A DNA stretch of 22,620 bases from a virus (IMGVR_UViG_3300045988_014132:1-22620), one strand, 5' to 3'; positions 1,529 through 7,650 are shown, counted from the first letter of the stretch. Made by a program: numbers and translations. Notes: generated by a model from the sequence alone, not told the origin.

Positions 1529-1713
1529 ACGCCACAATTCAAACGATACCAGAGCTTCTTATCCAGACACGAGGCAATCAGACCGAAGTGGCAAGGATGC
1601 TTTCCTGCGCAAGAGGAACAGTGCTCAAGTACAACCGAGACAGCAAAGGCGAGCGTCACGTAATAGTTAACGGCGTCCTGATGGTCAAACAGGGCAAAAG
1701 GGGAAGGCCATGA
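1525..1713 (+). CDS. ninH: NinH-like protein
   Basis: 62-aa ORF; TIPELLIQTRGNQTEVARMLSCARGTVLKY resembles lambda NinH (helix-turn-helix-like); ATGA overlaps on both sides. Confidence 0.75.
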   Translation: MNATIQTIPELLIQTRGNQTEVARMLSCARGTVLKYNRDSKGERHVIVNGVLMVKQGKRGRP

Positions 1714-2333
1714 GACTCGAAAGCGTAGCTAAATTTCATTCGCCAAAAAGCCCGATGATGAGCGACTCACCACGGGCCACGGCTTCTGACTCTCTTTCCG
1801 GTACTGATGTGATGGCTGCTATGGGGATGGCGCAATCACAAGCCGGATTCGGAATGGCTGCATTCTGCGGTAAGCATGAACTCAGCCAGAACGACAAACA
1901 AAAGGCTATCAACTATCTGATGCAATTTGCACACAAGGTATCGGGGAAATACCGTGGTGTGGCAAAGCTCGAAGGAAATACTAAGGCAAAGGTACTGCAA
2001 GTGCTCGCAACATTCGCTTATGCGGATTATTGCCGTAGTGCCGCGACGCCGGGTGCAAGATGCAGAGATTGCCACGGTACAGGCCGTGCGGTTGATATAG
2101 CCAAAACAGAGCAGTGGGGGAGAGTTGTTGAGAAAGAGTGCGGAAGATGCAAAGGAGTCGGCTATTCAAGAATGCCAGCAAGCGCCGCATATCGCGCTGT
2201 AACGATGCTAATCCCAAACCTTACCCAACCCACCTGGTCACGCACTGTTAAGCCGCTGTATGACGCTCTGGTGGTGCAATGCCACAAGGAAGAGTCAATC
2301 GCAGACAATATTTTGAATGCGGTCACACGTTAG
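1710..2333 (+). CDS. Q: Late gene antiterminator Q (lambda type)
   Basis: 207-aa ORF, same length as lambda Q, with CRDCHGTGR...CGRCKGVGY zinc-binding motif; lies directly upstream of a pR'-like promoter and the S-R-Rz cassette. Confidence 0.9.
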   Translation: MRLESVAKFHSPKSPMMSDSPRATASDSLSGTDVMAAMGMAQSQAGFGMAAFCGKHELSQNDKQKAINYLMQFAHKVSGKYRGVAKLEGNTKAKVLQVLATFAYADYCRSAATPGARCRDCHGTGRAVDIAKTEQWGRVVEKECGRCKGVGYSRMPASAAYRAVTMLIPNLTQPTWSRTVKPLYDALVVQCHKEESIADNILNAVTR

Positions 2334-2889: not shown

Positions 2890-3213
2890 ATGAAGATGCC
2901 AGAAAAACATGACCTGTTAGCCGCCATTCTCGCGGCAAAGGAACAAGGCATCGGGGCAATCCTTGCGTTTGCAATGGCGTACCTTCGCGGCAGATATAAT
3001 GGCGGTGCGTTTACAAAAACAGTAATCGACGCAACGATGTGCGCCATTATCGCCTGGTTCATTCGTGACCTTCTCGACTTCGCCGGACTAAGTAGCAATC
3101 TCGCTTATATAACGAGCGTGTTTATCGGCTACATCGGTACTGACTCGATTGGTTCGCTTATCAAACGCTTCGCTGCTAAAAAAGCCGGAGTAGAAGATGG
3201 TGGAAATCAATAA
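2890..3213 (+). CDS. S: Class I holin S (S107 antiholin / S105 holin dual start)
   Basis: 107-aa ORF starting [22 protein letters not shown]; essentially the lambda S protein as recalled; Met1-Lys2-Met3 dual-start motif present. Confidence 0.95.
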
Positions 3214-3673
3214 TCAACGTAAGGCGTTCCTCGATATGCTGGCGTGGTCAGAGGGAACTGATAACGGACGACAGAAAACCAGAAATCATGGTTATGACGT
3301 CATTGTAGGCGGAGAGCTATTCACTGATTACTCCGATCACCCTCGCAAACTTGTCATGCTAAACCCCAAACTCAAATCAACAGCAGCCGGACGTTACCAG
3401 CTTCTTTCCCGTTGGTGGGATGCCTACCGTAAGCAGCTTGGCCTGAAAGATTTCTCTCCGAAAAGCCAGGACGCTGTGGCATTGCAGCAGATTAAAGAGC
3501 GTGGCGCTTTACCGATGATTGATCGCGGTGATATTCGTCAGGCAATCGACCGTTGCAGCAATATCTGGGCTTCACTGCCGGGCGCTGGTTATGGTCAGTT
3601 CGAGCATAAGGCTGACAACCTGATTGCAAAATTCAAAGAAGCTGGCGGAACGGTCAGAGAGATTGAGGTATGA
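3197..3673 (+). CDS. R: Endolysin R (lambda-type lytic transglycosylase)
   Basis: 158-aa [27 protein letters not shown]...; matches lambda R in length and sequence as recalled; start overlaps the 3' end of S. Confidence 0.95.
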
Positions 3674-4137
3674 GCAGAGTAACCGCGATTATCTCCGCTC
3701 TGGTTATCTGCATCATCGTCTGTCTGTCATGGGCTGTTAATCATTACCGTGATAACGCAATCGCCTACAAAGAGCAGCGTGATAAAAAAGTCAGTGAGCT
3801 GAAGCAGGCGACCGCCACCATTACTGACATGCAGCAACGCCAGCGTGCTGCTGATGCACTCGATGCTAAATACACGAAGGAGTTAGCTGATGCGAAAGCT
3901 GAAAATGATGCTCTTCGGCGCAAGCTTGATAATGGTGGCAGGGTGCTCGTCAAAGGAAAATGCCCTGTGCCATCCTCAGCCGAAACCTCCAGCGCCTCCG
4001 GCATGGGCAATGATGCCACCGTCGAACTCTCTCCAGTTGCTGGACGAAACGTTCTCGGTGTCCGGGACGGAATTATCCGCGACCAAACAGCACTGAGAAC
4101 GCTTCAGGAATACATCAGGACGCAATGCCTTCGATGA
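3670..4137 (+). CDS. Rz: Inner-membrane spanin subunit Rz (i-spanin)
   Basis: 155-aa ORF; N-terminus [31 protein letters not shown] is lambda Rz-like with one TM helix; C-terminal half differs from lambda Rz; ATGA overlap with R. Confidence 0.9.
3890..4096 (+). CDS. Rz1: Outer-membrane spanin subunit Rz1 (o-spanin lipoprotein), embedded in the +1 frame of Rz
   Basis: 68-aa ORF wholly inside Rz in another frame; signal peptide with lipobox VAGC ([21 protein letters not shown]) followed by proline-rich [11 protein letters not shown]; classic embedded spanin architecture. Confidence 0.8.
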
Positions 4138-4311
4138 TAGCGATAATTTTACTCATCATCCTTCACATCTGGCTCTGTAGACAGGGTGGTGATCACTTCT
4201 GGAGTGAATCCAGATTAAACATCTCATTGCTGATGCTTGAAGTTGAGCATCTGGCGCGCGGTAAGGGGCTGCGTTGAGATAAGAGCCAGTCATCACAAAC
4301 ACCAGGATTTA

Positions 4312-4337
4312 GCCTCGCATTCGCGGGGCTTTTTATT
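4312..4337 (+). terminator. Intrinsic terminator downstream of the lysis cassette
   Basis: 7-bp stem gcctcgc / gcggggc (one G-U pair) with loop attc, followed by TTTTTATT at 4330-4337. Confidence 0.55.
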
Positions 4338-4355
4338 GCAACAAAGGTAAAGACG

Positions 4356-4643
4356 ATGGATGAAGAATATCGTAAAGACCTGCAATTGTGGTTTGGCCTG
4401 ACGCATGCGTCGTTCTGCGTGATGCCGAGAGTATTCATGGAGGCTATGCCACAAGAATGGCAAGAGAAGATGGCGCAGTTGCTTTTTGAGTATGGCGACA
4501 CGATCAAAACGGATGTCTGCGGAGTTCACAGCTGTTTCGTTACTGCCAAAGACGGCAACAACCGCTTTATGAGGATGCCAGAAGATATTCTGAACTATCG
4601 TCATCCCCGGCGTGAGTTCATCGAATCATTTCTGAAGAAGTAG
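4356..4643 (+). CDS. Hypothetical protein (95 aa)
   Basis: ORF MDEEYRKDLQLWFGLTHASFCVMPRVF...; AGGT about 9 nt upstream of the ATG; protein-like composition, unlike the overlapping - strand ORFs; no family recognised. Confidence 0.5.
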   Translation: MDEEYRKDLQLWFGLTHASFCVMPRVFMEAMPQEWQEKMAQLLFEYGDTIKTDVCGVHSCFVTAKDGNNRFMRMPEDILNYRHPRREFIESFLKK

Positions 4644-4891
4644 CCATTACAAAGCCTATCTGCGGGTGGGCTTGATAATGAAACCGGAGCTTATTCTTGG
4701 CAACCAGTTATGGCAGTACCACGAAGCAACCCAAGCCAGAAAGTGGGGAAATAACACTGGCAGCCACTGAAAGATGAACCTCCTGCCTGATGGCAAAAAA
4801 AGATTCTTTGTGGTGGCGGACTGATGGAAAGACATCGGTTATTGCAGAGGCCATTCAATGAGTGGTCTCGACAATGGCTTATACCCTACAC

Positions 4892-4917
4892 GGGATAACT
4901 TAACTGATATCCCTTTT
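4892..4917 (+). terminator. Hairpin plus T-tract upstream of the small-ORF/terminase operon (weak terminator or regulatory hairpin)
   Basis: Perfect inverted repeat gggata (4892-4897) / tatccc (4908-4913) with 10-nt loop, followed by TTTT at 4914-4917. Confidence 0.3.
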
Positions 4918-4938
4918 AACGGATAAACGGAGCCAACA

Positions 4939-5181
4939 ATGGCAGAGATTATTCCCATGACTGAAGAACAGAAATTCCAGTTAGAGATTTACAAGCTGGT
5001 CATGAACCAGAACGCAGCCGCAGAAGAAGCATTTCAATTCATTGGCACTGACGAACTGAAGCTTGAGCTATTCAAAATTCACTTCCAGTCAGGCGGCGCT
5101 AATTCAGATATCACGACCCGCACTATCGAAGCGGTGCGTAAATCGAAGGAAGCGTTAGACCTGTTCACTACCGGAGTGTAA
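4939..5181 (+). CDS. Hypothetical protein (80 aa), predicted helical
   Basis: ORF MAEIIPMTEEQKFQLEIYKLVMNQ...; GGAG 7 nt upstream; first of three tightly packed small genes before the terminase genes; size and position resemble the small ORF carried by P22-like phages between lysis and gene 3. Confidence 0.6.
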   Translation: MAEIIPMTEEQKFQLEIYKLVMNQNAAAEEAFQFIGTDELKLELFKIHFQSGGANSDITTRTIEAVRKSKEALDLFTTGV

Positions 5182-5184
5182 GAG

Positions 5185-5472
5185 ATGACTGAACAAGAAA
5201 TGCCGAGATACCAGTGCCACAAAAAAGTTCGCGCCCTGAAGATTGGCTCTATAGAACATAAGCCAAACCCAGATCAGCCTGGTAAGTCTGGCTCTTCTAG
5301 TTATGGGGCAATTATTCATCCGGATGATAAGAAATACGCAGCATTTGATGTTAGCGCGGAATATATCTGTAAGCACCGACCAATGCCTGGAGGCTATTAC
5401 GTTGTCTATGAGGATGGATATGAATCATATTCTCCTGCTGAGGTATTTGAGTCTGGATATTCAAAATTATAG
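5185..5472 (+). CDS. Hypothetical protein (95 aa) with Cys/His dyads
   Basis: ORF MTEQEMPRYQCHKKVRALKIGS...YICKHRPMPGGYYVVYEDGYESY; starts 4 nt after the previous stop; QCHK and CKH dyads suggest possible metal binding. Confidence 0.6.
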   Translation: MTEQEMPRYQCHKKVRALKIGSIEHKPNPDQPGKSGSSSYGAIIHPDDKKYAAFDVSAEYICKHRPMPGGYYVVYEDGYESYSPAEVFESGYSKL

Positions 5473-5481
5473 GAATCCTCT

Positions 5482-5661
5482 ATGACAATCGTCGTTGATC
5501 TTGGTAAGGAGAAGAAATTCCCAATTACTCAAGAGCTATACGAGCGACTTGAAAGCGTCATCCATGATTACGATGGTGAAATCAGTTTATGCGAGGCGAT
5601 TGGCACACTCGAATTGCTGAAGCAGTCACTGATTGAAGGCGCGAAAGAGTCCTCAGCCTGA
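5482..5661 (+). CDS. Hypothetical small protein (59 aa)
   Basis: Not in the supplied ORF track (below its size cutoff); read directly: ATG 5482 ... TGA 5659-5661, MTIVVDLGKEKKFPITQELYERLESVIHDYDGEISLCEAIGTLELLKQSLIEGAKESSA; AGGAAT upstream; fills the gap between the 95-aa ORF and the terminase gene. Confidence 0.5.
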   Translation: MTIVVDLGKEKKFPITQELYERLESVIHDYDGEISLCEAIGTLELLKQSLIEGAKESSA

Positions 5662-5678
5662 AATAACAACTAAGTGAG

Positions 5679-6173
5679 ATGAATATGGCAGCACCAAAGG
5701 GCAACCGATTTTGGGAGGCCCGCAGTAGTCATGGGAGAAACCCTAAATTCGAATCGCCTGAGGCGCTGTGGGCTGCTTGTTGTGAATACTTCGAGTGGGC
5801 TGATGATAACCCGCTATGGGAGGGTAAGGTATTTTCATATCAGGGAGAAATAATTAAGGCCAATGTCCCTAAGATGCGAGCCATGACTATTTCAGGATTG
5901 TGTACCTTCCTTGATATCACCAGGCAAACATGGGGAACCTTCCGGTCAATGGAAGGTTTTTCTGACGTCACATCACGAGCGGAAGACATCATCTACGACC
6001 AGAAATTCTCTGGCGCAGCCGCTGACCTTCTCAACGCTAACATCATCGCCCGTGATTTGGGCCTCAAAGAGCAGTCGCAAGTTGAAGACGTGACACCTGA
6101 TAAGGGAGATCGCGATAAGCGACGCTCTCGTATCAAGGAGCTATTCAACCGTGGAACTGGACGCGATTCTTGA
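5679..6173 (+). CDS. 3: Terminase small subunit (P22 gp3-like)
   Basis: N-terminus (M)[33 protein letters not shown] matches P22 gp3 as recalled; the true start may be the second ATG at 5685, giving a 162-aa product. Confidence 0.85.
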
Positions 6174-7650
6174 TAACCTGAGCGACGAAGAGCAAATCGA
6201 ATTGCTCGAGCTACTAGAAGAAGAAGAGAACTACCGGAACACACACCTGCTATATGAATTTACGCCATACAGCAAACAGCGTGAGTTCATCGACGCTGGG
6301 CATGACTATCCAGAGCGCTGTTTTATGGCTGGTAACCAGCTTGGTAAGTCATTTACTGGTGCTGCTGAAGTCGCGTTTCACCTTACAGGGCGTTATCCGG
6401 GCACAAAAGGCTATCCTGCTGATGGTAAATATGGCGGTGAGTGGAAAGGTAAGCGTTTCTATGAGCCTGTTGTCTTCTGGATTGGCGGCGAGACAAACGA
6501 GACTGTAACCAAAACGACTCAACGCATCCTGTGCGGTCGTATCGAAGAGAATGATGAGCCTGGCTACGGTTCCATACCGAAAGAAGACATCATTAGCTGG
6601 AAGAAGTCTCCTTTCTTTCCGAACCTTGTTGATCATCTTCTGGTTAAGCATCACACGGCTGATGGCGTTGAAGATGGCATTTCAATCTGCTACTTCAAAC
6701 CATACTCGCAAGGCCGTGCTCGCTGGCAGGGTGACACAATCCACGGCGTGTGGTTTGACGAAGAACCACCATATAGCATTTATGGTGAAGGCCTTACCCG
6801 TACCAACAAATACGGGCAATTCTCAATTCTGACGTTTACCCCTCTGATGGGGATGTCTGACGTTGTTACCAAGTTCCTGAAGAATCCCAGCAAGTCGCAG
6901 AAAGTGGTCAACATGACCATCTATGACGCTGAGCACTATACCGACGAGCAGAAAGAGCAAATCATCGCATCCTATCCAGAGCATGAGAGAGAGGCTCGAG
7001 CTCGCGGTATTCCTACGATGGGTAGTGGTCGAATCTTCCAGATACCGGAAGAGACGATTAAGTGTCAGCCGTTCGAGTGTCCTGATCACTTCTACGTAAT
7101 TGGCGGTATGGATTTCGGATGGGATCACCCGCAGGCGCAGGTTCAGCTTTGGTGGGATAAGGACGCAGACATAATCTACCTTTCACGCGTTTGGAAGGCG
7201 AAAGAAAAGACAGCCGTTCAGGCGTGGGGAGCTGTTAAACCATGGGCGCATAAAGTGCCAACCGCATGGCCTCATGACGGAAACCAGCACGAGAAGGGCG
7301 GCGGTGAGCAGCTCAAAGGGCAGTATGCGGACGCTGGATTTATGATGTTGCAGGAGCATGCGACATGGCCTGATGGCGGTAACGCTGTTGAGCCTGGTAT
7401 CACTGAATTGCGAGACATGATGCTCGACGGTCGCTTCAAAGTATTCAACACCTGTGAGCCATTCTTTGAGGAGTTCCGCCTCTATCACCGTGATGAAAAC
7501 GGGAAGATCGTCAAGCTTAACGACGACGTGCTATCAGCCGTTCGCTATGCATACATGATGCGCCGCTTCGCCAAAATGATGCGCGACATCAAAAAACCAA
7601 AAGAGAAAAAGATACCAGCCCCAATCAGGCCCATCGCACGGAGAACTTAA
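6151..7650 (+). CDS. 2: Terminase large subunit (P22 gp2-like ATPase/nuclease)
   Basis: 499-aa ORF (same length as P22 gp2) with Walker A-like GNQLGKS; 23-nt overlap with the small terminase gene. Confidence 0.9.

What the first reader, a model, noticed from the sequence alone, without database searches (positions are those of the whole stretch)
4312..4643. Stand-alone 95-aa gene placed directly after an intrinsic terminator
A convincing hairpin plus T-tract (4312-4337) sits 18 nt upstream of the ATG at 4356, and the gene is followed by about 295 bp without an ORF of 60 aa or more. That is the layout of an independently acquired, possibly separately regulated gene. The protein has three Cys (including CGVHSC) and matches nothing I recognise. 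The overlapping - strand ORFs (4193-4507, 4293-4604) look less protein-like.
Basis: seen in the sequence. Interest (0 to 1): 0.45.

Follow-up and report, generated by a model that had tools for sequence, protein, structure and literature searches.

The report
Uncharacterised accessory gene in phage swap-slot
The 95-codon gene is real, but it is an ordinary swappable passenger gene of unknown function in a known variable spot of a P22-like prophage, and the terminator in front of it marks the end of the lysis genes rather than giving the gene its own regulation.

Summary
A strong intrinsic terminator (4311-4337) sits 18 nt before the ATG at 4356. The 95-aa + strand ORF is followed by 295 bp with no ORF of 60 aa or more. 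The + frame is the gene: dN/dS is about 0.1, there are more than 1,400 homologue clusters, and the - frames break up in relatives. The window is the late region of a P22-like prophage. The gene fills a known hypervariable slot between the lysis-cassette terminator and orf80/DUF2560. Related phages carry Rha, a GIY-YIG nuclease or other ORFs there, and P22's pid moron sits in an adjacent slot on the other strand. The terminator belongs to the conserved lysis flank and is the shared recombination junction. No promoter lies between it and the gene, so expression is most likely by Q-antiterminated late read-through. The Cys residues are not conserved. The protein is soluble, belongs to PHROG 3527 (unknown function), has no Pfam match and no match to any solved fold. 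Homologues also occur in virulent phages, often just upstream of or between the terminase genes. Function is unknown. My best guess is a lytic-cycle accessory factor, either for counter-defence or linked to packaging. Interest is low to moderate.

The parts
1710..2333 (+). Q-type late antiterminator gene. Its product would let RNA polymerase read through the terminator at 4311-4337.
   Evidence: Pfam PF03589 Antiterm, E = 1.3e-57
2890..4137 (+). Lysis cassette: holin 2890-3213, endolysin 3197-3673, Rz i-spanin 3670-4137, with the Rz1 lipoprotein o-spanin embedded at 3890-4096.
   Evidence: Pfam Phage_holin_3_1 and Phage_lysis. Homologous CDSs are annotated in HF4s, Huey and epsilon34. The Rz1 lipobox VAGC and its Pro-rich tail are read from the translation.
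4125..4277 (+). 50-aa ORF conserved after Rz in P22-like phages (Sf6 gp65 / epsilon34 gp67 type). It is the last ORF of the conserved left flank.
   Evidence: it lies 82 nt upstream of the gene in most close loci. No Pfam match.
4311..4337 (+). Intrinsic terminator that closes the lysis module. It is also the junction shared by the P22-like left flank and the gene module found in other lambdoid phages.
   Evidence: Homology to Huey and epsilon34 ends at 4334-4337, while homology to Enterobacter and Yersinia copies of the gene starts at 4309-4311. The stem is kept, the loop varies, and there is a compensatory variant CTCAC/GTGGG. It is annotated as a terminator in epsilon34.
4338..4355 (+). 18-nt leader with the ribosome-binding site (AAAGGTAAAGACG). 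It travels with the gene.
   Evidence: AAAGGTAAAGRCGATG is retained down to about 60% protein identity. Leader identity is 0.80, against 0.58 at third codon positions and 0.47 further upstream.
4356..4643 (+). The 95-aa gene: a soluble 11.5-kDa protein of PHROG 3527 (unknown function). It is the cargo of variable slot A.
4645..4680 (+). Hairpin directly after the stop codon with no U-tract, so not an intrinsic terminator for the + strand. It lies in the right junction segment 4640-4711, which is shared with Huey, HK140 and Kapi1.
   Evidence: Fold. Not called by the terminator scan. Boundaries.
4712..4897 (.). Conserved non-coding spacer shared with P22, BTP1 and epsilon34. Huey has a further insertion at about 4837.
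4898..4924 (.). Slot B: the place where P22 and BTP1 carry the - strand pid moron. It is empty here.
   Evidence: The BTP1 alignment breaks at 4897/4925, and a Pid tblastn finds nothing in the window. The pid location is taken from PMC3573128 and PMC8835761.
4939..5181 (+). DUF2560 gene (the P22 orf80 equivalent), the conserved right-hand neighbour of the variable region.
   Evidence: Pfam PF10834, E = 1.1e-43. Annotated as ORF80 / DUF2560 in P22 and BTP1.

Best explanation
The ORF at 4356-4643 is a genuine protein-coding accessory ('cargo') gene. It sits in hypervariable slot A of the late region of a P22-like prophage, between the terminator that closes the lysis cassette and orf80/DUF2560.

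The mobile unit is only the 18-nt ribosome-binding leader plus the ORF. The hairpin in front of it is a generic module-boundary terminator. It serves as the shared homology junction where different cargos are exchanged.

The gene has no promoter of its own. It is most likely transcribed only in lytic growth, as part of the Q-antiterminated late transcript that reads through the terminator into the packaging genes.

The product is a soluble, mildly acidic 11.5-kDa alpha/beta domain. It belongs to a very large uncharacterised phage family (PHROG 3527) and matches no solved fold.

Its most likely role is a dispensable lytic-cycle accessory factor that works by binding a partner molecule. I favour counter-defence or host takeover, with a packaging-linked role as the main alternative.

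Shown here: coding strand, selection, family size, slot boundaries, the shared terminator, the lack of a consensus promoter, solubility, and non-conserved Cys. Inferred: read-through expression and timing. Guessed: the biochemical role.
For: Coding and selection:
- 45 close and more than 1,400 distant homologue clusters.
- dN/dS is 0.08-0.19 where measurable, and synonymous sites are saturated while the protein stays conserved.
- PHROG 3527, E = 5e-56.

Slot and boundaries:
- Homology to Huey and epsilon34 stops at 4334-4337 and resumes at 4640 or 4712.
- Other cargos in the same slot are Rha (BTP1), GIY-YIG (epsilon34), a 166-aa ORF (Huey), a 173-aa ORF (Kapi1) and a 91-aa ORF (HK140).

Terminator shared and generic:
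- It is present without the gene in epsilon34, Huey and BTP1.
- It is present with the gene behind different lysis cassettes.
- It lies after the gene in Morganella, on both sides in Yersinia L010/L080, and after Q genes elsewhere.

Expression:
- No + strand promoter-like site in 3000-6500.
- A Q antiterminator lies upstream on the same strand.

Lytic-cycle role rather than lysogen role:
- Homologues occur in virulent Sasha-type and Carvaje-type phages and in Vibrio and Pseudomonas phages.

Protein properties:
- pI 5.9, GRAVY -0.51, most hydrophobic 19-residue window 0.99.
- AF2 model with pLDDT 88 has no PDB match by Foldseek and matches only uncharacterised phage proteins in BFVD.

Accessory nature:
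- Present in 72 of 5,426 E. coli genomes, while 1,553 carry the flanks.
- Found in small-gene accessory zones in diverse phages.
Against: - No transcript data exist, and the promoter scan covers only sigma-70 consensus sites.
- In distant phages (L012, L014) the gene does have a good promoter (TTGACG-17-TAATAT) and flanking terminators, so autonomous expression occurs in some lineages.
- The counter-defence idea rests only on its dispensability, mosaic distribution and location. There is no PADLOC, Pfam or structural support.
- The recurrent position next to terminase genes fits a packaging-linked role at least as well.
Confidence: 0.6

Rival explanations
1. Packaging-linked accessory factor. 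The protein would act with the terminase (TerS/TerL, or an HNH partner) during DNA maturation, and its position ahead of the packaging genes would reflect that function.
For: - It lies between TerS and TerL in two unrelated lineages. In L110 the stop and start codons overlap; the other case is L012-L014.
- It lies directly upstream of TerS in Vibrio phage Seahorse.
- In enterobacterial lambdoid prophages it always lies between the lysis genes and the terminase, ahead of four different terminase types.
- In 64 distant non-redundant contexts, about 10-11 have a TerL within 3.5 kb downstream and none has one upstream.
Against: - About 200 P22-like or lambdoid phage records with the same flanks and packaging genes lack it, so it is dispensable for packaging.
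- Many family members sit in early, replication or integrase-proximal clusters far from any terminase.
- The zone upstream of the terminase is a general dumping ground for accessory genes, so the bias may reflect genome architecture rather than function.
- In this window three other small genes separate it from TerS.
Confidence: 0.2
2. Classical moron, the first reader's reading: an autonomous, separately regulated unit expressed from the prophage to benefit the lysogen.
For: - It is inserted where related phages have other inserts.
- The neighbouring slot holds the true moron pid.
- Distant homologues L012 and L014 have their own promoter and terminators.
Against: - No promoter-like site, and only 18 nt between terminator and ATG.
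- No U-tract terminator after the gene.
- GC content is not deviant, 0.474 against 0.49 for the window.
- It has the same orientation as the late operon, unlike pid.
- The upstream terminator would block any non-antiterminated entry.
- Homologues exist in virulent phages.
Confidence: 0.1
3. Lysis-cassette accessory protein, for example a regulator of holin, endolysin or spanin timing, which would explain why it follows the spanin genes.
For: - It lies immediately after the spanin gene in all sampled enterobacterial lambdoid prophages, whatever the holin or spanin type.
- In Morganella it lies on the lysis side of the terminator.
- Sasha and Solent annotators called a transmembrane segment.
Against: - No transmembrane segment or signal peptide. 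The maximum Kyte-Doolittle window is 0.99, and only 2 of 77 family members reach 1.6.
- The hydrophobic stretch contains the invariant P24-R25 and is modelled as part of a globular core.
- Outside Enterobacterales the gene is not near lysis genes.
- It occurs as the C-terminal domain of long soluble proteins.
Confidence: 0.05
4. Not a + strand gene: the real feature would be a - strand ORF (4193-4507 or 4293-4604) or a non-coding element.
For: Two - strand ORFs of about 100 aa overlap the region. P22's pid shows that - strand genes do exist in this neighbourhood.
Against: - The - strand ORFs have no PHROG hit.
- The reverse frames carry 1-8 stops in homologues.
- The substitution pattern fits + frame purifying selection.
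- No Pid similarity anywhere in the window.
- No Rfam match in the window.
Confidence: 0.01

Closest known systems
P22/BTP1 pid moron locus (Cenens et al. 2013, PMC3573128; PMC8835761)
   Same: It lies in the same variable region of P22-like phages, between the lysis genes and orf80/DUF2560. It is a small ORFan-type protein (86 aa). Related phages have no insert or a different insert at that site.
   Different: - pid is on the opposite strand, with its own weak promoter, a 174-nt 5'UTR and its own terminator.
- It sits in an adjacent slot (window about 4898-4924, empty here), not in slot A.
- There is no sequence similarity.
- pid is restricted to a few phages, whereas this family is very large.
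Other slot-A cargos of P22-like and lambdoid phages (Rha anti-repressor in P22/BTP1/Sf101, GIY-YIG nuclease in epsilon34/g341c, unnamed ORFs in Huey, Kapi1 and HK140)
   Same: They have the same left junction (end of the terminator T-tract), often the same right junction (window 4640 or 4712), the same strand, and the same presumed late read-through expression.
   Different: The proteins are unrelated. None of the others belongs to PHROG 3527.
PHROG 3527 (with related PHROGs 33008 and 10794), phage protein families of unknown function
   Same: The whole 95-aa protein matches the C-terminal 92 positions of the PHROG 3527 profile at E = 5e-56. Longer relatives match the same families.
   Different: The PHROG profiles include N-terminal extensions that this protein lacks. 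The family has no assigned function, Pfam model or solved structure.
Linker or boundary sequences of lambdoid mosaic genomes (modular exchange at short conserved junctions; stated from my own knowledge of the Susskind-Botstein and Hendrix-Casjens literature)
   Same: A 27-nt terminator is shared by two otherwise unrelated sets of modules and coincides exactly with both homology break-points.
   Different: Here the junction is itself a functional-looking terminator, with a conserved stem and a free loop. Recombination at this site was inferred, not observed.

Membership tests
Moron (Hendrix/Juhala sense) | Inserted between genes that are adjacent, or differently filled, in related phages | tested here: met
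   Exact cargo 4338-4639 lies between flanks shared with about 200 phage records.
Moron (Hendrix/Juhala sense) | Own promoter | tested here: not met
   No + strand sigma-70-like site in 3000-6500, and only 18 nt between terminator and ATG. This was a consensus scan only, with no transcript data.
Moron (Hendrix/Juhala sense) | Own downstream terminator | tested here: not met
   The hairpin at 4645-4680 has no U-tract and is not called by the scan.
Moron (Hendrix/Juhala sense) | Deviant base composition | tested here: not met
   GC is 0.474 for the cargo against 0.49 for the window and 0.506/0.463 for the flanks.
Moron (Hendrix/Juhala sense) | Expressed from the repressed prophage | not testable with these tools
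   Needs RNA-seq of a lysogen.
Intrinsic (rho-independent) terminator | G+C-rich stem, short loop and a U-tract immediately 3' of the stem | tested here: met
   8-bp stem with 6 G-C pairs, 4-nt loop, tail TTTTTATT; -15.2 kcal/mol, z = -3.5.
Intrinsic (rho-independent) terminator | Structure maintained in evolution | tested here: met
   The stem is invariant or changes in a compensatory way (CTCAC/GTGGG), while the loop takes at least 10 different sequences across loci.
Intrinsic (rho-independent) terminator | Terminates transcription and is read through by Q-modified polymerase | not testable with these tools
   Inferred from the Q gene at 1710-2333 and from established lambda/P22 late-operon biology.
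PHROG 3527 | Significant full-length match to the family HMM | tested here: met
   E = 5.3e-56, residues 1-95 against profile positions 139-230 of 233.
Pid (P22 instigator of dgo expression) | Sequence similarity to Pid, - strand orientation, location next to orf80 | tested here: not met
   A tblastn of BTP1 Pid against the window finds nothing. The gene is on the + strand and in a different slot.
   C21 and C54 vary freely. C60 is conserved at 90% or more only among close relatives and is absent from the invariant and near-invariant columns of the wider alignment.
Membrane-associated lysis or exclusion protein | Transmembrane helix or signal peptide | tested here: not met
   The maximum 19-residue hydropathy is 0.99. 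The stretch contains invariant P24-R25. The domain also occurs at the C-terminus of long soluble proteins.
Known anti-defence or defence protein families | Match to a curated model | tested here: not met
   No PADLOC, Pfam or NCBIfam hit. Huey's 'anti-CRISPR' labels on its slot cargos are not backed by PHROG v4.

The most novel reading that the evidence does not exclude
The 95-aa protein may represent a large, structurally novel phage domain family. The family has more than 1,400 clusters at 50% identity, no Pfam model and no solved-fold match. Its repeated placement just before or between TerS and TerL in unrelated phages could reflect a previously unrecognised function tied to genome packaging or late DNA metabolism. 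Examples would be a modulator or protector of the terminase, or a binder of a small molecule or nucleic acid through its conserved Arg, Trp and Tyr residues (R25, W35 and Y81 are invariant; Q36 and R82 nearly so).
Probability: 0.15. Interest if true: 0.6.

Novelty: new member of a known kind. Interest (0 to 1): 0.3.

Why it matters
For this window the finding matters little. It is one more exchangeable passenger gene in a variable locus of P22-like phages that has already been described. It carries no sign of a special regulatory arrangement.

Two points have some wider value:
- The terminator that ends the lysis cassette is the precise junction where cargos are swapped among lambdoid phages. 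This is a clean example of a functional element that also serves as a recombination linker.
- The protein belongs to a very large, widely distributed phage family with no Pfam model, no function and no structural relative. That makes it a reasonable candidate for accessory-gene screens and for structure determination.

Tried and rejected
- The first AF2 model, built from 37 close homologues, had pLDDT 52 and was discarded. A 77-sequence alignment gave pLDDT 88.
- Foldseek against PDB gave a best E-value of 3.3.
- BFVD returned only uncharacterised members of the same family.
- AFDB50 was not available.
- Sequence and profile searches of PDB found nothing.
- Pfam, NCBIfam and PADLOC found nothing, including a permissive scan of all 77 alignment members looking for a consistent weak hit.
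- The N-terminal extensions of ten long relatives gave no informative Pfam domain.
- A search for a conserved neighbouring partner gene found none.
- Guilt by association with Huey's 'anti-CRISPR' cargos was dropped, because PHROG v4 lists both proteins as unknown function.
- The Cys-motif metal-site idea was rejected.
- The transmembrane annotation seen in Sasha and Solent was rejected.
- A pid homologue in the gap or on the - strand was rejected.
- Rfam found nothing in the whole window.
- My seed-based TerL detection was under-sensitive, finding 6 hits. I replaced it with Pfam scans of the large neighbouring ORFs.
- The literature (HF4s genome paper, accessory-gene screen) says nothing about this gene.
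- All public names for the protein are 'hypothetical protein'.

Full report
**1. What the window is**

The window is the late region of a P22-like (Lederbergvirus-type) prophage. The order of features is:
- nin-region genes (Rha/KilAC-like 157-879, YbcO, RusA);
- a Q-type antiterminator at 1710-2333 (PF03589, E = 1.3e-57);
- holin, endolysin and Rz with embedded Rz1;
- a 50-aa ORF at 4125-4277;
- the terminator, then the 95-aa gene;
- a 295-bp gap;
- the DUF2560/orf80 gene at 4939-5181, followed by two small ORFs;
- the gp3-type small terminase, the large terminase, the P22 portal, and onward to a P22-type tailspike.

The exact 95-aa protein occurs on 370 contigs, mostly Salmonella enterica. 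It is always named 'hypothetical protein'.

**2. The observation**

- The hairpin is AGCCTCGC-ATTC-GCGGGGCT followed by TTTTTATT, at 4311-4337. It is the best terminator-like site in 3000-6500. It folds at -15.2 kcal/mol, z = -3.5.
- Exactly 18 nt separate it from the ATG at 4356, and a GG of the Shine-Dalgarno lies 8 nt upstream of the ATG.
- The ORF is 95 aa. The next 295 bp hold no ORF longer than 59 aa. No record that shares this stretch annotates it as coding.

**3. Which strand codes**

The + frame is the gene.
- It has 45 close homologues of mostly 94-105 aa across Salmonella, E. coli, Shigella, Klebsiella, Enterobacter, Yersinia, Erwinia and Morganella.
- A profile search finds 1,440 cluster representatives at E <= 1e-3 and 436 at E <= 1e-10. 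A second search finds 1,449 proteins at E <= 1e-5.
- Where divergence can be measured, dN/dS is 0.08-0.19. In most pairs synonymous sites are saturated while the proteins stay 55-80% identical.
- The reverse frames accumulate 1-8 stops in homologues, and the two - strand ORFs have no PHROG match.

**4. The protein**

- It matches PHROG 3527 (unknown function) at E = 5e-56, over the C-terminal 92 positions of that profile.
- There is no Pfam, NCBIfam, PADLOC or PDB-sequence match, even at permissive thresholds or across all 77 members of a diverse alignment.
- The conserved core is LWxWFGLSYASF-x-V-x-PRVxMxxMPxEWQxKMAxLL ... P-x-W/I-L-x-NYRHP. R25, W35 and Y81 are invariant across the wide alignment.
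- The protein is soluble: 11.5 kDa, pI 5.9, GRAVY -0.51. Its most hydrophobic 19-residue window scores 0.99, so the transmembrane annotations in two phage records are unlikely to be right.
- With a deep alignment AlphaFold gives a confident small alpha/beta model (pLDDT 88.4, pTM 0.68).
- Foldseek finds no PDB match, with a best E-value of 3.3.
- BFVD returns only uncharacterised phage proteins of the same family, including Caulobacter phages.
- In many relatives the domain is the C-terminal part of proteins of 130-490 aa whose N-terminal extensions are unrelated and unannotated. One protein carries two tandem copies.

**5. The slot and the terminator**

Only one record in the phage collection (HF4s) carries the whole 4100-4950 stretch. 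About 200 others match the flanks only. In complete E. coli genomes, 1,553 of 5,426 match part of 4278-4700, but only 72 match at least 80% of it.

Break-points are sharp:
- Homology to Huey and epsilon34 ends at 4334-4337, the end of the T-tract.
- It resumes at 4640 (Huey, and also HK140 and Kapi1) or at 4712 (epsilon34, P22, BTP1).

The cargo is therefore just the leader plus the ORF. The same slot holds:
- Rha in BTP1;
- a GIY-YIG nuclease in epsilon34;
- a 166-aa ORF in Huey;
- a 173-aa ORF in Kapi1;
- a 91-aa ORF in HK140.

Homology to the gene copies in Enterobacter and Yersinia prophages starts at 4309-4311, the first base of the hairpin, and ends at the stop codon. The hairpin is therefore the piece shared by both module sets, which makes it the likely recombination junction.

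It is a generic terminator type:
- The stem is kept while the loop takes at least ten sequences, and there is a compensatory stem variant.
- It is annotated as a terminator in epsilon34, which lacks the gene.
- It lies directly after the gene in Morganella and on both sides of it in some Yersinia prophages.
- It is degraded in Enterobacter (no T-tract) and absent in other Yersinia prophages.
- It also occurs after Q genes.

By contrast, the 16-nt leader AAAGGTAAAGRCG-ATG stays with the gene down to about 60% protein identity. It is as constrained as first and second codon positions.

**6. Relation to pid**

P22's pid is the one characterised gene of this region. It is described as a moron between orf25 and orf80, transcribed against the late operon from its own promoter, with its own terminator (PMC3573128 and PMC8835761).

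Mapping BTP1 onto the window puts pid at about 4898-4924. That is a second slot, and it is empty here. Pid has no similarity to anything in the window. Huey shows a third insertion point near 4837. The variability of this locus is thus already in the literature, and the present gene is another occupant of it.

**7. Expression (inferred)**

- No + strand sigma-70-like promoter is found between 3000 and 6500.
- 18 nt cannot hold one.
- There is no U-tract terminator after the gene.
- GC content is unremarkable.
- The gene points the same way as the Q-controlled late operon.

From established lambda and P22 biology, Q-modified polymerase reads through intrinsic terminators. The gene should therefore be made late in lytic growth, and the terminator should keep it silent in the lysogen. 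This is the opposite of 'separately regulated'. It remains an inference until transcripts are mapped.

In some distant phages (L012, L014) the gene does have a good promoter and flanking terminators. Autonomy is therefore lineage-specific, not a property of the family.

**8. Function (guess, with alternatives)**

Homologues occur in virulent siphoviruses (Sasha-type and Carvaje-type) and in Vibrio, Pseudomonas and Stenotrophomonas phages. This points to a role in lytic development.

In all sampled enterobacterial lambdoid prophages the gene lies between the spanin gene and the terminase genes. This holds whatever the lysis-cassette type, and ahead of four different terminase types.

Elsewhere its context varies:
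- between TerS and TerL in two lineages;
- directly before TerS in phage Seahorse;
- in early, replication or integrase-proximal clusters of small genes.

In 64 non-redundant distant contexts, about 10-11 have a large terminase within 3.5 kb downstream on the same strand, and none has one upstream. The upstream large genes are replication enzymes. This is a real positional bias. It is also what one expects for any small accessory gene parked between the replication or lysis modules and the tightly packed structural operon.

No conserved partner gene was found. Because roughly 200 related phage records package DNA without it, I rank the roles as follows:
- a dispensable accessory role such as counter-defence or host takeover, about 0.3;
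- a packaging-linked modulator, about 0.2;
- a lysis role or a lysogen-benefit role, 0.1 or less each.

**9. Verdict**

The feature is an ordinary cargo gene in a known hypervariable locus. It belongs to a large uncharacterised phage family.

I classify it as a new member of a known kind and score interest at 0.3. The residual interest lies in the family's size, its apparently novel fold and its bias towards the terminase neighbourhood.

Noticed in passing
window 4640-4938: The 'empty' 295 bp is a conserved non-coding spacer shared by many P22-like and HK97-like phages. It contains at least two further insertion points: about 4837 (Huey's second cargo) and about 4898-4924 (the pid site in P22/BTP1). 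P22's annotated 'ORF25' falls in this spacer. The matching small ORF here differs by a one-base A-run length, so it is probably not coding.
   Followed up: partly
window 4125-4277: A 50-aa ORF with a hydrophobic N-terminus starts inside the end of Rz. It is conserved in P22-like phages (Sf6 gp65, epsilon34 gp67, Kapi1_042) and always precedes the terminator. It has no family match and no known function.
   Followed up: partly
L001 (HF4s) 1698-2042; proteins P0004, P0016: The HF4s record starts this gene 57 nt upstream (114 aa), and two database proteins carry longer N-terminal extensions. All of these read through the terminator hairpin. The conserved ATG, leader and N-terminus MDEEYRKDL indicate that these are mis-called starts.
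   Followed up: partly
L023:1856, L066:1796, L075:486, L076:1961, L078:1515, L079:644, L084:948, L085:860: The same terminator design (A/GCCTCGC, a 4-nt loop, GCGGGG, then a T-run) recurs elsewhere in these lambdoid contigs. In L023 it lies just downstream of the Q gene, a tR'-like position. The positions in the other loci were not annotated. This suggests one terminator family reused at module boundaries.
   Followed up: no
window 5185-5472; L002 (Huey) 1258-1758: The second 95-aa ORF of the window, downstream of DUF2560, shares PHROG families 872, 9467 and 32732 with Huey's slot-A cargo. Related domains therefore seem to circulate among the different slots of this region.
   Followed up: no
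L015:4377-4652, L021:6288-6572, L018:6320-6559: In three unrelated phages the gene immediately downstream of the family member is a small Cys-rich, zinc-ribbon-like protein. The three show no detectable similarity to one another. This may be coincidence.
   Followed up: partly
proteins P0051, P0143, P0154, P0182: One relative has two tandem copies of the domain. Several long relatives join it to other modules through repeated 'ALAQPSP' linkers, an architecture reminiscent (from my own knowledge) of Ea22-like mosaic proteins of lambdoid early operons.
   Followed up: no
L025 (Sasha gp32); Salmonella phage Solent record: Homologues are annotated with a transmembrane domain or as 'putative transmembrane protein'. 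Hydropathy and the confident globular model argue against this.
   Followed up: yes
L002 (Huey) 1258-1758 and 1993-2373: Two cargo ORFs are labelled 'anti-CRISPR protein' in the Huey record. Both match only unknown-function families in PHROG v4, so the basis of the label is unclear.
   Followed up: partly
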